A stretch of 64,000 nucleotides of DNA from the human T2T-CHM13v2.0 reference genome, Homo sapiens. A program made the translations under genes and the position numbers. Positions 40,367-45,775 of the stretch are shown here, piece after piece (position 1 is the first letter of the stretch; each line of letters opens with the position of its first letter). The stretch lies in NCBI GenBank assembly GCA_009914755.4, contig CP068257.2, positions 22,208,001 to 22,272,000 of the forward strand, read 5' to 3'. The notes under the pieces were generated by a model, which was not told the origin of the DNA, made no database searches, and was given only the letters and a program-made list of their open reading frames with translations.

Positions 40367-40406
40367 TATATATATATATATATATATATATATATATATA
40401 TATATA
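40367..40406. repeat. (TA)n microsatellite, an expansion of the LTR's internal TATATA motif
   Basis: 20 perfect TA units. Confidence 0.9.
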
Positions 40407-40554
40407 CCACTGCGCCCAGCTAATTTTTGTATTTTTTGTAGAGATGGGGTTTCACCATGTTGGCCAGGATGGTCTCAACCTCTTGACCTCATGATCCACC
40501 CGCCTCAGCCTCCCAAAGTACTGAGATTACAGGCGAGAGCTACCATGCTTGGAC
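40407..40554 (-). mobile_element. Alu fragment (reverse): 5' half of the element only
   Basis: CCACTGCGCCCAGCTAATTTTTGTATTTTTTGTAGAGATGGGGTTTCACCATGTTGGCCAGGATGGTCTCAACCTCTTGACCTCATGATCCACCCGCCTCAGCCTCCCAAAGTACTGAGATTACAGGCGAGAGCTACCATGCTTGGAC. Confidence 0.85.
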
Positions 40555-40783
40555 AAGACTGACCTTTTTTAATTAGCTAATTCCCATGAAAATTATCCAA
40601 GTTGTTGCGCATATCAATAGTTCATTCCTTTTTATCACTAAGTACTATTCCATAAGTTACTTTTTTTAAAGTTTATTTTATTTTTTTCTTTTTTATTTAT
40701 AAAATAAATAAAAAATATAAAAATAAAATATGAAATAATATATATATATATATAATATAAAAAAAAATAGAATCTTTTCTTAT
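40555..40783 (+). repeat. flank module F, copy 1 (paralog of 45595-45775) with an internal A/AT-rich expansion
   Basis: AAGACTGACCTTTTTTAATTAGCTAATTCCCATGAAAATTATCCAAGTTGTTGCGCATATCAATAGTTCATTCCTTTTTATCACTAAGTACTATTCCATAAGTTAC..TTTATTTATAAAATAAATA[~60 bp A/AT-rich insertion]TAGAATCTTTTCTTATACT. About 90% identical to copy 2 outside the expansion. Confidence 0.85.
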
Positions 40784-40907
40784 ACTCCGCCTCCTGGGTT
40801 CAAGTGATTCTCCTGCCTCAACCTCCCAAGTAGCTGGGATTACAGGCATCCGCCACCACACCTGGCTAATTTTTTGTATTTTTAGTAGTGATGGGGTTTC
40901 ACCATGT
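40784..40907 (-). mobile_element. Alu fragment (reverse): central portion, overlapping in Alu coordinates with the 40407-40554 fragment
   Basis: CCGCCTCCTGGGTTCAAGTGATTCTCCTGCCTCAACCTCCCAAGTAGCTGGGATTACAGGCATCCGCCACCACACCTGGCTAATTTTTTGTATTTTTAGTAGTGATGGGGTTTCACCATGT. Confidence 0.85.
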
Positions 40908-41454
40908 ATGTATGGGAGTTTATATATATCCTATTAGTTCTGTCCCTTTAAGAGAACCCTGACTAATACAATGAGTATGCTGCCAGCATGAGCTAGTGTA
41001 ATTAAATAAATAAGATTAATGTGACACAAGAAGCCTTTAAAACTATTTTATCAAACACGTGACATATTTATATTTTCTACTGCAGGAAGCAAATGAAATA
41101 ACACTTGTTTACCAAGAAATTGTTACAGGATATATGTATCATTCAGGAAGTAGATGTTCAAAAAAATTAATGTTCTTCTTGAATACTAATAAATTCAAGA
41201 TTTTTAGAAATGTACATTCAGGTTTGTGAGGAATATGACAATCTCCAAAATTATGATTGAAATTCTCTGATACCAGAAGCTTCTCCCATTCAAATGATAT
41301 TTCACATACAGCACATAGCCTAGGGCAAGGCCTGGAAAGTGAATTCTTCTCAGCAACTCTTGCTAGTTGTTTGCTTGATGTCTCCAAATAACATATGTAA
41401 GTAGTTTTCTTTTTATTTTAATCTTCATACCTACAAAAATATATTTTCTTGATC

Positions 41455-41766
41455 AGGCGAGGTGGCTCACGCCTGTAATCCCAGCACTTTGGGAGGCTGA
41501 GGTGGGCAGATCACAGGGTCAGGAGATACAGACCATCCTGGCTAACATGGTGAAACCCCGACTCTACTAAAAAAATATAAAAAATTAGCCAGGGGTGGTG
41601 GCACACAACTGTAGTCCCAGCTACTTGGGAGGCTAAGGTGGGAGAATCGCTTGAACCCGGGAGGTGGAGGTTGCAGTGAGCCGAGATCACGCCACTGCAC
41701 TCCAGCCTGGGCAATAGCACAAGACTCCATCTCAAAACATATATATATATATATATTTTTTTTTCT
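41455..41766 (+). mobile_element. Alu SINE with A/(TA)n/T tail
   Basis: GGCGAGGTGGCTCACGCCTGTAATCCCAGCACTTTGGGAGGCTGAGGTGGGCAGATCACAGGGTCAGGAGATACAGACC ... GACTCCATCTCAAAACATATATATATATATATATTTTTTTT. Confidence 0.9.
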
Positions 41767-42008
41767 CTATCAATTTCGTCATTCTTATTAATGCCATTTC
41801 AAAATTTAGCTGCCATCTATATAATCCCCAGAGATGTATATTGAAATAAAAAATAATTGTGAAAATGACTTTAGCAACTTCATAGCTGATACCACTTTTT
41901 GAAAAGTAGAATATCATTAAGACAGGCTATATATTGGCTTAACAGCTACCAACATGTATCCTTTAGAAACACAGCTTAGTTTCAAGCCCATTTATGTAGC
42001 AGGGAGAA

Positions 42009-43063: not shown

Positions 43064-43092
43064 GTGTGTGTGTATGTGTGTGTTTGTTGTGT
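43064..43092. repeat. imperfect (GT)n microsatellite
   Basis: GCGTGTGTGTGTATGTGTGTGTTTGTTGTGTG. Confidence 0.6.
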
Positions 43093-44890
43093 GCACTCAG
43101 GTGCATGAGTATTAAGAGAGGAGGATTCAGGTATGACTTTTCTTGTGATACAATGATATATGCACAGGGACGCTGACTGAGGACATGGTTTCAAAAGAGT
43201 ACAAGTGAATATCAGAGTAGAAGTGTCAAGCAAGAGATGACAAGCAACTACTTAGGGTGAATTTCTTAAACATATACTCATTCCTGGGATTCCATATGAT
43301 TACCACAGACAGGACCTTATAGAAGTCAGGGCCATACAGCTATCACACAGGGACATCACCCAAGCTGTGTTCTAAATTACCTGGTTTATAAGGACAGTGG
43401 TGGCTTCTGAACATCTTTTAAGAAGACGTCAAAATTAGGCAGAAGAAACTGAAACCCAAAAAGCCATTTGTTCCCCAAGCCCTCCTTCCACTTGCCAATA
43501 TTTCCCAGAAAATAAGCAACCTAGAAAACCCTGTTCTTGCTGGAATCTTTCTGTTACAACAATTATAAAGTCCACTTTTTCTATAGATCAGCCTGTCTTA
43601 TTCTATCACTAATACAATAATCAGAAATTGCATCTTCACATGGATTGAGATCAAAATGGGAGGAAACAGTTTTGAAAAAACAAACAAACAATAAACCTGA
43701 AGAAGCTTGAGACCATATTTCAACTGCAGCATCGGTTTTTGTTCTGCTTTGCCTTGTGATATTTTTCTTGAGTGTGAGGAAGAATTAGAATCAATAAATA
43801 AAACTGTTGACCTGGACTCACATCAAAAAGGCTGCCAGGTCAGCGAACATCATCAGCTAAAGATAAAAGAACTTCTTTACTTTGGATAGGACATTTATAA
43901 CTGCTTTGTCACCTGTATGTTTTAATCCTGTTTGTGGTTGTTGTTGTTGTTAATTCCCTACTGTGTTACATGTTTTAGGCAGGCAATTTAGTTTAAATTG
44001 CTCATCCTGTTTGTTTTGTTATTTTGTGGGCTATGTATGGATTTTAGTCATTGGCAAGGAACTCTGATGTAAATAAGGGAACAATAGAAACCTAGAATAA
44101 ATTGACTGACATGAAATCATCCGCCAAGGTCACAATGTCTTATATATCACAAAAACAATAAATCGATATGAGTCTGGGCAGGCAAGTTATATGTTTCTAT
44201 TTGGAGTCAAGGTGTATTGAATCATCCCAAAGAGGAAATTATCTTTAATCTCTGTGGGTTAAAAAATATAAAACACACTCAGGAATTCAAACTAAGTGAA
44301 AATGCATTTTGGAGGAACTACGTACATTTCTTCAAATCATTAATAATATTTTAATACTGTGCTAATAAGTTTTAATAATTTTGGTAATTAGGATGATTAT
44401 CCTGAAAAATACTGCATATACCCTTATTAGATTGCATCTTGAATATTGCTTTATGAATAATCTGTTTATTCTCAATGCTTGAAAAAATTAAACAATGCTT
44501 TAAACAAAAATTAAAGGTTTTATTTTTAATTAAAAAAATATTGATTTACAAGATATTCCCAAAATCATGCAGAAAGATCTTGTGTAGCTTTCATTCAGTT
44601 TCTCCCAGTGGATACCCAACTATAGTCCAATGTTTAAGTTAGGAAATTGGCCTTGATATCAGTGTTTGTAGCATATGATGCCGCTTTATCACATGTATAG
44701 TTTTGTGTAATGACCATATCAATCAAGGTACACTACTACTCCATCACAACAAAGCTCGCTCTTACATGCTTTCTCTTTATACTCACACTCATTTCCCTCC
44801 CTTCGCTTCACCCCTGTGGTGGTTAATTTTGTGTGTCAATTTCACTGGGCTTTAGGTTGTGCAAGCATCTGGTGAAACATCATTTCTAGT

Positions 44891-45260
44891 TGTGTCTGTG
44901 GAGGGGTTTCTGGATGAAATTAACATTTGAGTCAGTAAATTGATAAAAACAGATTTCCACCCCCAATGTGGATGGACCCCATTCAATCCACTGGGCATTA
45001 ACAGCCTGAGTAAGAAAGAATTCTTTCTCCGCACGACTGTCTTTAAACTGAATGCCAGCTTTCTCCTGTCTTTGGATTCAGATTCAGATTCAGACTGGAA
45101 CTATACCCTAAGCTCCACTGGGCTTTCAACTTGCCAACTGCAGATCTTGGACTTCTCAGCCTCCATAATTATGTGAGCCAATTCCTTAAAGTAAACCTCT
45201 TATCTAGCTAGATCTAGAACCCATTGGTTTTGTTTCTCTGGAGAACCTCAACAGACATAA
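44891..45260 (+). mobile_element. MaLR LTR family X copy, uninterrupted
   Basis: TGTGTCTGTGGAGGGGTTTCTGGATGAAATTAACATTTGAGTCAGTAAATTGATAAAAACAGATTTCCACCCCCAATGTGGATGGACCCCATTCAATCCACTGGGCATTAACAGCCTGAGTAAGAAAGAATTC...CTTGGACTTCTCAGCCTCCATAATTATGTGAGCCAATTCCTTAAAGTAAACCTCTTATCTAGCTAGATCTAGAACCCATTGGTTTTGTTTCTCTGGAGAACCTCAACAGACATAA. Confidence 0.6.
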
Positions 45261-45305
45261 TTTCTGATCCTTAACAATCACTAATCTTTTTTTCCATTTA
45301 TATAG

Positions 45306-45594
45306 TTTTTTTTTTTCTTTTGAGACGGAGTCTTCCTCTGCCCCAGGAGTACAGTGGCACGATCTCGGCTCACTGCAACCTCCACTTCCTGAGTTCAAGT
45401 GATTCTCCTGACTCAGCCTCCTGAGAAGCTGGGACTACAGACGCGCGACACCATGCCCAGCTAATTTTTGTATTTTTAGTAGAGATGGGGTTTCACCATG
45501 TTGGCCAGGATGGTTTCGATCTCTTGACCTTGTGATCCACCCACCTTGGCCTCCCAAAGTACTGGGATTACAGGTGTGAGACACCATGCCTGGC
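45306..45594 (-). mobile_element. Alu SINE (reverse), full length
   Basis: T-rich then GAGACGGAGTCTTCCTCTGCCCCAGGAGTACAGTGGCACGATCTCGGCTCACTGCAACCTCCACTTCCTGAGTTCAAGTGATTCTCCTGACTCAGCCTCC ... GATTACAGGTGTGAGACACCATGCCTGGCC. Confidence 0.9.
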
Positions 45595-45775
45595 CAAGAC
45601 GGACCTTTTTTAAATTAGCTAATGCCCATAAAAATTACCTAAGTTGCAGTGCATATCAATAGTTCATTCCTTTTTATCACTAAGTACTATTCCACAAGTT
45701 ATCTTTTTTCAAAGTTTAATTTCTTTCTCTTTTATTTATAAAATAAATAGAATCTTTTCTTAGACTAAAACAAAA
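45595..45775 (+). repeat. flank module F, copy 2 (paralog of 40555-40783)
   Basis: AAGACGGACCTTTTTTAAATTAGCTAATGCCCATAAAAATTACCTAAGTTGCAGTGCATATCAATAGTTCATTCCTTTTTATCACTAAGTACTATTCCACAAGTTATCTTTTTTCAAAGTTTAATTTCTTTCTCTTTTATTTATAAAATAAATAGAATCTTTTCTTAGACT. Confidence 0.85.

What the first reader, a model, noticed from the sequence alone, without database searches (positions are those of the whole stretch)
40367..45775. Duplicated Alu-plus-180-bp-flank module; one copy circularly permuted inside a MaLR LTR
Copy 2 (45306-45775) is a full reverse-oriented Alu directly followed by module F, which is non-Alu sequence. Copy 1 (40407-40907) contains the same F at about 90% identity. But it is arranged as [distal Alu half][F][proximal Alu part] with the two Alu pieces overlapping in Alu coordinates. 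That is a circular permutation of [Alu-F]. Copy 1 is inserted inside a MaLR LTR, between an expanded (TA)20 and the LTR's resumed 3' end. Because F is not part of the Alu, the two loci are related by DNA-level duplication, not independent retrotransposition. The permutation suggests copying from a tandem [Alu-F][Alu-F] intermediate or rolling/template-switch synthesis. Both copies abut copies of the same MaLR LTR family (40051-40970 and 44891-45260). This may have provided the homology for the event.
Basis: seen in the sequence. Interest (0 to 1): 0.55.

Follow-up and report, generated by a model that had tools for sequence, protein, structure and literature searches.

The report
Old patchwork Alu-plus-flank insertion scar
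A 380-base stretch (half an Alu plus the old LINE-1 and unique DNA next to it) was copied from 5 kb away and pasted, together with an Alu fragment that probably comes from a different Alu, into a TA-repeat inside an ancient LTR; this is an ordinary kind of DNA-break repair scar, not a new element.

Summary
The duplication is real. Window 40414-40713 aligns to 45455-45752 at 90.2%, crossing an identical Alu-5'-end/flank junction. Module F is not anonymous sequence. Its first ~98 nt are the antisense 3' end of ORF2 from an old LINE-1, and the rest is AT-rich unique flank. At 44.5-45.7 kb that LINE-1 runs colinearly through an inserted LTR and the inserted Alu, so locus 2 is the donor and locus 1 the derived copy.

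Locus 1 is a ~500-bp patch in the TA run of a MaLR-type LTR. Its order is (TA)21, Alu 150->1, F, Alu ~224->100, a 12-nt filler, then the LTR again. It has no poly(A), no convincing target-site duplication, and only 0-4 nt of junction microhomology.

The second Alu piece (B) shares none of the donor Alu's private non-CpG changes and differs at subfamily-type sites. It probably (~85%) comes from another Alu, so the "circular permutation" is most likely an appearance. The two LTRs are only 69% alike over 110 nt, and no LTR sequence was copied, so LTR homology did not drive the event.

Best reading: an ancient break-repair patch made by template switching, like non-classical Alu insertions and class-2 templated insertions. 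This is a known kind of event, so interest is low. I could not test genome-wide copy number or primate orthologues.

The parts
39988..40364 (+). Left part of the recipient MaLR-type LTR (LTR1), ending ...TAATAAACT.
   Evidence: Family-level similarity to LTR2 (69% over 110 nt; D7). The MLT1-type naming is from memory; no repeat library was available.
40365..40406 (.). (TA)21 microsatellite at the left edge of the insertion. It is the presumed break site, or an expanded target TA run.
   Evidence: TRF reports period 2, 21 copies, 100% matches.
40407..40554 (-). Piece A: Alu positions ~150->1 as read on the + strand, copied from the donor Alu at about 45449-45595.
   Evidence: It shares rare non-CpG derived states with the donor: column 70, seen in 0 of 22 other Alus, and column 110, seen in 2 of 22. 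It has a sub-threshold 7SL hit.
40555..40786 (-). Module F, copy 1. 40555-40653 is antisense LINE-1 ORF2 3' end. 40654-40713 and 40765-40786 are copied AT-rich unique flank. 40714-40764 is an AT-rich tandem expansion absent from the donor.
   Evidence: 88% identity to 45597-45752, and 22 nt at 95% to 45745-45766. TRF finds period 27 x 2.4.
40785..40907 (-). Piece B: an Alu fragment, positions ~224->100, lacking both Alu ends and the poly(A). It overlaps the end of F by the 2-nt microhomology CT. It probably comes from a different Alu.
   Evidence: It is 91% identical to the window Alu consensus and 84.4% to the donor Alu, with no rare derived state shared with the donor.
40908..40919 (.). 12-nt filler ATGTATGGGAGT between piece B and the resumed LTR. 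Its origin is unknown; it may be native LTR sequence.
   Evidence: Read directly from the sequence. It has no counterpart at the donor.
40920..40970 (+). Right part of LTR1 (TTATATATAT CCTATTAG...CTGACTAATACA). TTATATATAT also occurs at 40364-40373.
   Evidence: 82% identity to the 3' end of a third LTR at 30664-30713. The direct repeat was read from the sequence.
44540..44816 (-). Donor locus: the 3' UTR part of an old antisense LINE-1.
   Evidence: It aligns colinearly with metagenome contig L001 3911-4391, as part of 71% identity over 405 columns.
44817..45260 (+). LTR2, a MaLR-type LTR inserted into the old L1. It was not copied to locus 1.
   Evidence: It interrupts the L1 colinearity. 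Identity to LTR1 is 69% over 110 nt.
45261..45305 (-). A short piece of the same L1 lying between LTR2 and the Alu.
   Evidence: It is part of the colinear L001 alignment.
45306..45595 (-). Donor Alu, full length with the T-tail on the + strand. Its 5' half (about 45449-45595) was copied as piece A.
45596..45767 (-). Module F, donor copy. 45596-45695 is antisense L1 ORF2 3' end (translation ...VEXYLVIKRNELLI...). 45696-45767 is AT-rich flank beyond the L1 5' truncation.

Best explanation
Locus 1 is an old mutational scar with no evident function.

Shown:
- A DNA end in or beside the TA run near the 3' end of a MaLR-type LTR was repaired with a ~500-bp patch.
- The patch reads as one strand made from left to right. 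It first copies the donor 5 kb downstream in the same orientation, from the middle of the donor Alu through the Alu 5' end and on through 172 nt of flank (L1 ORF2 end plus unique DNA).
- At a 2-nt CT overlap it continues with 121 nt of Alu.
- It then rejoins the LTR after a 12-nt filler.
- There is no poly(A), no convincing target-site duplication, and only 0-4 nt of microhomology at the junctions.
- The donor is retained, and the donor context is ancestral.

Inferred:
- The last Alu piece comes from a different Alu, whether as RNA or DNA (about 85%).
- The break arose at the structure-prone (TA)n run.
- The synthesis was template switching. It was either DNA-templated (MMBIR/FoSTeS/SDSA type) or reverse transcription of a local host transcript followed by a switch to an Alu RNA (the endonuclease-independent 'non-classical Alu insertion' / class-2 templated-insertion route). 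I cannot separate these two routes.
- The AT-rich 51-nt expansion inside F, and probably part of the (TA)21, arose later by slippage.
- About 10% divergence between the copies dates the event to roughly 25-50 Myr ago, depending on the rate assumed.
For: - Copy relation: 90.2% identity over 296 columns across the Alu/flank junction. The junctions are mapped.
- Donor direction: contig L001 aligns colinearly with 44540-44816 + 45261-45305 + 45598-45695. The LTR and the Alu at locus 2 therefore sit inside one L1, and F is native there.
- F is L1-derived: 16 of the 18 contigs retrieved with an F motif encode the ORF2 C-terminus on the opposite strand. The probe used for that test is itself ORF2p residues 1124-1275 (PDB 8sxt, E = 1.3e-92). 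F's own translation aligns to MEYYAAIKNDEF....
- No poly(A), and both Alu pieces are truncated at both ends.
- B probably has a different origin.
- Literature: non-classical Alu insertions are truncated, lack poly(A) and target-site duplications, and more than half carry 2 bp-2 kb of non-Alu sequence (PMC5402677). Class-2 templated insertions are break patches with end-joining features (PMC5110952). Multi-template insertions with microhomology are described for MMBIR (PMC8421209).
Against: - No empty-site orthologue or pre-insertion allele was available, so the insertion is inferred only from the interrupted LTR.
- A 10-nt direct repeat TTATATATAT (40364-40373 and 40920-40929) could be a target-site duplication, which would point to L1-endonuclease involvement with internal priming. 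It could equally be a split microsatellite.
- The origin of B rests on a handful of sites. Raw identity does not discriminate, and Alu-Alu gene conversion could have altered B after insertion.
- The left junction lies in a low-complexity run, so its microhomology cannot be scored.
- The link between (TA)n and the break is inference only.
Confidence: 0.7

Rival explanations
1. One [Alu-F] unit of about 385 bp (45383-45767) was circularised or tandemly duplicated. About 1.15 turns of it were then copied (rolling-circle or eccDNA re-insertion) into the LTR, giving a true circular permutation.
For: The layout fits geometrically. A+F corresponds to 45449-45767 and B would correspond to 45380-45502, with the F-end/B junction closing a ~385-bp circle at a CT microhomology. 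All pieces have the same orientation. B-to-donor identity (84.4%) is not significantly lower than A-to-donor identity (86.8%).
Against: - B shares none of the donor's 5-6 private non-CpG substitutions in its range. Piece A shares 2 of 5, giving P of about 0.1 under common origin.
- B has G rather than C at column 223 and A rather than G at column 233, both subfamily-type sites.
- B has CCAG where A and the donor both have CTGG.
- B has an extra A in the linker run.
- There is no trace of a tandem copy at the donor locus.
Confidence: 0.05
2. The same break-repair patch as in the best explanation, but B was copied from the same donor Alu after a backward template switch of ~385 bp. No circle or tandem intermediate is needed, and the differences arose later by mutation or gene conversion.
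For: Replicative template switching usually uses nearby templates. The CT microhomology lies at exactly the right place. Overall divergence is compatible with this origin.
Against: The same site-level evidence as for the circle model applies. My rough combined likelihood ratio is at least 100 against a common origin, and these are estimates of my own.
Confidence: 0.08
3. L1-endonuclease-dependent retrotransposition with internal priming. A host transcript covering F and the Alu 5' half was reverse-transcribed from a nick in the TA run, with a switch to an Alu RNA. TTATATATAT would be the target-site duplication.
For: The 10-nt direct repeat TTATATATAT flanks the insert plus filler. The target is AT-rich. 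An internal-priming class lacking poly(A) is described in PMC5402677.
Against: There is no poly(A). The repeat is a microsatellite motif and is offset from the right junction by 12 nt. There is no complementarity between the TA primer and the donor at the start point. The donor lies only 5 kb away in cis, which TPRT in trans does not predict.
Confidence: 0.12
4. A resident Alu at locus 1, of which B is the remnant, was broken and repaired by Alu-homology-primed synthesis from the Alu 5 kb downstream. The synthesis ran off into the flank F, and deletions followed.
For: This would explain why the copied tract starts inside an Alu, why B is a different Alu, and why the orientations agree.
Against: The predicted product keeps the resident Alu's T-tail and right monomer on the left, and its 5' end next to the right LTR part. 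Neither is present: B ends at Alu position ~100 against the LTR, and A starts directly at (TA)n. At least two extra deletions would be needed.
Confidence: 0.04

Closest known systems
Non-classical Alu insertions (NCAI; endonuclease-independent, break-repair-associated Alu insertions, Srikanta et al. 2009 as summarised in PMC5402677)
   Same: The Alu fragments are truncated at both ends. There is no poly(A) and no clear target-site duplication. Non-Alu sequence (here 232 nt) is co-inserted, and the junctions carry microhomology.
   Different: Here the non-Alu sequence is the genomic 5' flank of a specific Alu 5 kb away, so a Pol III Alu RNA cannot be that template. Two Alu pieces are present. 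Deletion at the target and an empty allele could not be checked.
Class-2 templated sequence insertions (TSI/TSIP; Onozawa et al., reviewed in PMC5110952)
   Same: It is a patch copied from elsewhere with the donor retained. It has end-joining features such as microhomology and filler, and no target-site duplication or poly(A).
   Different: Described TSIPs come from distant loci, often on other chromosomes, and are thought to be RNA-derived. This donor lies 5 kb away in cis. The event here is old and presumably fixed rather than polymorphic, which I did not test.
MMBIR/FoSTeS templated insertions with several templates (PMC8421209)
   Same: It is a multi-part insertion read as one nascent strand, with a nearby template, 2-4-nt microhomology at the switches, and association with a structure-prone sequence.
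   Different: The insert (~500 bp) is larger than most MMB-TIs described there. One template is probably a dispersed repeat of unknown location. The left-junction microhomology cannot be scored.
Classical Alu/L1 retrotransposition with 5' or 3' transduction
   Same: It moves repeat sequence together with flanking sequence.
   Different: There is no poly(A). The Alu is 3'-truncated. The flank lies upstream of a Pol III unit. The target-site duplication is unconvincing.

Membership tests
Non-classical Alu insertion (NCAI) | The Alu fragment is 3'-truncated and lacks a poly(A) tail. | tested here: met
   Piece A covers Alu 1-~150 and piece B ~100-224. Neither reaches the Alu 3' end or an A/T tail.
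Non-classical Alu insertion (NCAI) | No flanking target-site duplication and no L1 endonuclease site. | tested here: inconclusive
   There is no repeat immediately at both junctions. However, TTATATATAT occurs at 40364-40373 and at 40920-40929, 12 nt from the right junction. The microsatellite context makes this ambiguous.
Non-classical Alu insertion (NCAI) | Non-Alu sequence is often co-inserted (2 bp-2 kb). | tested here: met
   F (232 nt) and a 12-nt filler are co-inserted. The criterion is taken from PMC5402677.
Non-classical Alu insertion (NCAI) | An empty pre-insertion site, usually with a target deletion, seen in an orthologue or allele. | not testable with these tools
   No primate genomes were available. 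The exact F 30-mer is absent from the metagenome, GTDB and viral collections.
Class-2 templated insertion / MMBIR-type templated insertion | The inserted sequence is copied from an identifiable donor, and the donor is retained. | tested here: met
   The donor at 45449-45767 is retained and lies in its ancestral L1 context.
Class-2 templated insertion / MMBIR-type templated insertion | Microhomology or filler at the junctions. | tested here: met
   J2 has a CT overlap. J3 has up to 4 nt (ATGT) plus a 12-nt filler. J1 cannot be scored because it lies in the TA run.
Classical TPRT retrotransposition (Alu, L1, or 5' transduction) | A 3' poly(A) adjacent to a target-site duplication. | tested here: not met
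   There is no A or T tail at either end of 40407-40919.
Circularly permuted single unit (tandem, rolling-circle or eccDNA origin) | Both Alu pieces derive from the same Alu copy and so share its private substitutions. | tested here: not met
   B shares 0 of the 5-6 donor-private non-CpG states and differs at columns 223, 233 and 209/210. The sample of sites is small, so this is not an absolute exclusion.
LTR-homology-mediated (NAHR) duplication | Junctions lie in homologous LTR sequence, and the LTRs are co-duplicated or highly similar. | tested here: not met
   LTR1 and LTR2 are 69% identical over 110 nt. No LTR2 sequence is present in copy 1.
LINE-1 (identity of module F, first 98 nt) | Homology to the ORF2 3' end, colinear with the L1 3' UTR. 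| tested here: met
   The evidence is. Direct Pfam, PDB and protein-database searches with the 41-aa translation found nothing. The subfamily name (L1M-type) is from memory only.
Alu (pieces A, B and the donor) | 7SL-derived dimeric SINE sequence. | tested here: met
   blastn against a full Alu in the window. Sub-gathering Metazoa_SRP hits at 40439-40553, 40762-40866 and 45320-45461, all on the minus strand.
MaLR (MLT1-type) LTR for the recipient | A match to a curated MaLR consensus. | not testable with these tools
   No repeat library was available. The only evidence is mutual similarity of three copies in the window and the TG...CA ends and ...CTGACTAATACA terminus, recognised from memory.

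The most novel reading that the evidence does not exclude
The insert is a re-integrated small circular DNA, or a rolling-circle copy, of a ~385-bp [Alu-flank] unit. That would make it a fixed germline eccDNA/microDNA re-insertion tens of millions of years old. The differences in piece B would then be due to later Alu gene conversion.
Probability: 0.05. Interest if true: 0.5.

Novelty: new member of a known kind. Interest (0 to 1): 0.15.

Why it matters
The finding has little significance beyond book-keeping. It is one more fossil example of primate germline breaks, here at a TA microsatellite, being patched with copied local sequence and Alu material. Such cases can mimic composite elements or permuted duplications in annotation. 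It has modest value as a worked example of how to separate a real flank-carrying copy from coincidental repeat similarity. It also shows that overlapping Alu coordinates do not by themselves prove a circular intermediate.

Tried and rejected
- Pfam scan of F's minus-strand translation found no family. Pfam also has no model that hits the bona fide ORF2 C-terminus at 55856-56341.
- A PDB sequence search with the F translation found nothing.
- A search of the 5.8-billion-protein database with the F translation found no candidate.
- An exact F 30-mer was absent from the metagenome, GTDB genome and viral contigs. The genome-wide copy number of [Alu-F] and primate orthologues could therefore not be assessed.
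- Ranking by raw Alu identity, meant to decide B's origin, proved uninformative. From the donor's view A ranks 2nd and B 4th of 23. From B's view the donor ranks 13th.
- I looked for B's donor among the 23 Alus of the window. The best match is 90%, no better than B's 91% to the window consensus, and I found no sign that any of them is B's donor; B's own private changes were not screened systematically.
- A larger co-duplication including the LTRs was rejected.
- A resident-Alu gene-conversion model was rejected because it predicts Alu ends that are absent.

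
Full report
**What is there.** The window is primate-type DNA dense in Alus; blastn with one full Alu finds 23 near-full copies. I read 39800-46200 directly and aligned the two loci.

- Window 40414-40713 matches 45455-45752 at 90.2% (267/296, 6 gap bases).
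- The match runs from the middle of a reverse-oriented Alu, through the Alu 5' end, into non-Alu sequence. The Alu/flank junction is the same in both copies (...GG(A/C)C|AAGAC(T/G)GACCTTTTTT...).
- After an AT-rich stretch present only in copy 1 (40714-40764), the last 22 nt of F match again at 95% (40765-40786 vs 45745-45766). TRF reads that stretch as a 27-nt period x 2.4.
- Copy 1 then continues with a second Alu fragment, piece B (40785-40907), covering Alu positions ~224->100. Piece A (40407-40554) covers ~150->1, so the two overlap by about 50 Alu positions.
- Rfam's 7SL model hits both pieces on the minus strand below the gathering score, as expected for Alu.
- (TA)21 lies at 40365-40406.

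**What F is.** The minus-strand translation of F reads ...LMEXYLVIKRNELLICATTW.... Direct searches with it found nothing in Pfam, PDB or the large protein database.

- The window contains a younger L1 3' end at 55856-56341(-). Its translation is LINE-1 ORF2p residues 1124-1275 (PDB 8sxt, E = 1.3e-92).
- F's translation aligns to that fragment's MEYYAAIKNDEFMSFVGTWM (8/20, E = 8e-4 for the single comparison).
- A 23-nt degenerate motif from F retrieved 18 metagenome contigs. Several carry Alus, so they are primate host contamination.
- Sixteen of the 18 encode the ORF2 C-terminus on the strand opposite the motif (E down to 4e-17). They match roughly the first 100 nt of F at 65-80%.
- Contig L001 aligns colinearly, at 71% over 405 columns, with the concatenation 44540-44816 + 45261-45305 + 45598-45695.

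At locus 2, then, a single old antisense L1 3' end is interrupted by an LTR (44817-45260) and by the Alu (45306-45595). F is the L1's ORF2 end up to its 5' truncation (~45695) plus ~70 nt of AT-rich flank. Three conclusions follow.

1. F is partly a catalogued repeat, but not one that normally sits next to an Alu. None of the 18 loci has an Alu at that junction.
2. The 88-90% identity spans Alu, L1 and unique flank with shared junctions. This cannot be coincidence between independent repeats.
3. Locus 2 is the ancestral context and therefore the donor. Locus 1, which interrupts an LTR, is the derived copy.

**Is copy 1 a circular permutation of one unit?** Geometrically it could be. A+F corresponds to about 45449-45767, and B would correspond to 45380-45502, closing a ~385-bp circle at a CT microhomology. 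The test is whether B descends from the donor Alu.

- Raw identity does not decide. B's identity to the donor is 84.4%, which ranks 13th of 23 from B's side but 4th of 23 from the donor's side. Piece A, certainly a copy because it is contiguous with F, ranks only 2nd from the donor's side.
- Site patterns do discriminate. A shares with the donor two rare non-CpG derived states: column 70, seen in no other Alu, and column 110, seen in 2 of 22.
- B shares none of the donor's 5-6 private non-CpG states in its range. The only states it shares are CpG transitions and a polymorphic column common among other Alus.
- B has A at column 233 (GTAATCC) where the donor has G. In this window that column tends to go with the donor's type of left monomer.
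- B has G at column 223 (GGCGGATG, against the donor's GTCGCGCG).
- B has an extra A in the linker run.
- B shows the opposite CpG decay product (CCAG) where A and the donor agree (CTGG).

My rough likelihood estimate (inference) favours a different Alu by at least 100:1. Allowing for gene conversion and the small number of sites, I put it at about 85%. The circular permutation is therefore most likely an appearance created by two unrelated Alu fragments in the same orientation.

**Role of the LTRs.** LTR1 and LTR2 share only 69% identity over 110 nt. No LTR2 sequence is present in copy 1. The copied tract starts about 190 bp beyond the end of LTR2, inside the Alu. LTR homology did not mediate the event.

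**Junctions and mechanism.** From left to right on the + strand the order is:

- ...TAATAAAC TT(AT)n A
- A
- F
- a CT overlap
- B
- ATGTATGGGAGT, a 12-nt filler
- TTATATATAT CCTATTAG...

There is no poly(A) or poly(T) at either end. Both Alu pieces lack the Alu 3' end. Microhomology at the junctions is 0-4 nt. A 10-nt TTATATATAT occurs at 40364-40373 and again at 40920-40929. It may be a target-site duplication or simply a split TA run, and I leave this open.

F lies upstream of the Alu's Pol III start, so an Alu transcript cannot have carried it. The whole patch reads as one nascent strand with two switches. It was primed at the TA run, copied 320 nt of the donor, switched at CT to an Alu, and then rejoined the LTR.

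This matches described classes:

- Non-classical Alu insertions are truncated at both ends, lack poly(A) and target-site duplications, and more than half carry 2 bp-2 kb of non-Alu sequence (PMC5402677).
- Class-2 templated sequence insertions are break-repair patches (PMC5110952).
- Multi-template MMBIR insertions are described in PMC8421209.

Whether the templates were DNA or RNA cannot be told from the sequence. A donor 5 kb away in cis and in the same orientation favours a local DNA template or a nascent local transcript. That the break arose because (TA)n is structure-prone is inference from general knowledge.

**Age.** Divergence between the copies is 9.8%, or about 10.5% after correction. 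At 1-2.2e-9 substitutions per site per year this gives roughly 25-50 Myr. This is an inference, and CpG sites inflate the estimate.

**What could not be done.** No repeat library and no primate genomes were available. The exact F 30-mer is absent from the three searchable collections. Genome-wide copy number, the donor of B, the empty site and the order of events therefore remain untested. The names MLT1-type and L1M-type are from memory.

**Verdict.** That covers the circular permutation through a tandem or rolling intermediate and the LTR-homology mechanism. The locus is best filed as an ancient patchwork (non-classical or templated) insertion, a known kind of event, so interest is low.

Noticed in passing
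window 41446-41735 (+) and 42055-42334 (-): A closely spaced inverted Alu pair (arms 83% complementary, ~320 nt apart) lies between the two loci. An (ATT)n run at about 42012-42055 abuts the T-tail of the second Alu. Such pairs can form long hairpins or dsRNA.
   Followed up: no
window 55856-56341 (-): A younger LINE-1 3' end whose translation has a single stop and matches human ORF2p residues 1124-1275 (PDB 8sxt, E = 1.3e-92). I used it as the in-window L1 reference.
   Followed up: partly
window 40699-40769: An AT-rich tandem expansion (TRF period 27 x 2.4, including (AT)11 at 40738-40759) is present in copy 1 of F and absent from the donor. It also forms a 57-nt, 88% inverted match with 40674-40730, so the end of F is quasi-palindromic.
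   Followed up: partly
window 40357-40373 and 40908-40929: The insertion is flanked by AATAAACTT(AT)n on the left and GGGAGTTT(AT)n on the right. TTATATATAT is a direct repeat. ATAAACT / AGTTTAT is a short inverted symmetry around the TA runs. The 12-nt ATGTATGGGAGT has no identified source.
   Followed up: partly
window 40817-40868, 42153-42204, 45412-45463, 41654-41713: Rfam gives sub-gathering hits to mir-1268 and mir-3135 inside Alus. These families are Alu-derived. All scores are below the curated thresholds, so they are not evidence of miRNA genes.
   Followed up: no
window 30664-30863 (-): A third MaLR-type LTR fragment. Its 3' end is 82% identical to the resumed LTR1 end. It was useful for judging what the undisturbed LTR looks like between AATAAA and CCTATTGG.
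   Followed up: partly
window 46136-46225 and 45788-45850: A (TATC)n microsatellite with TGTC variants, and a CA-rich tract that starts about 20 nt after the end of the copied donor segment.
   Followed up: no
loci L001-L018 (metagenome contigs): The contigs retrieved by a 23-nt L1 motif carry Alus and L1 ORF2 remnants. They are therefore primate, probably human, host DNA inside metagenome assemblies. L005, L007 and L018 appear to be the same locus.
   Followed up: partly
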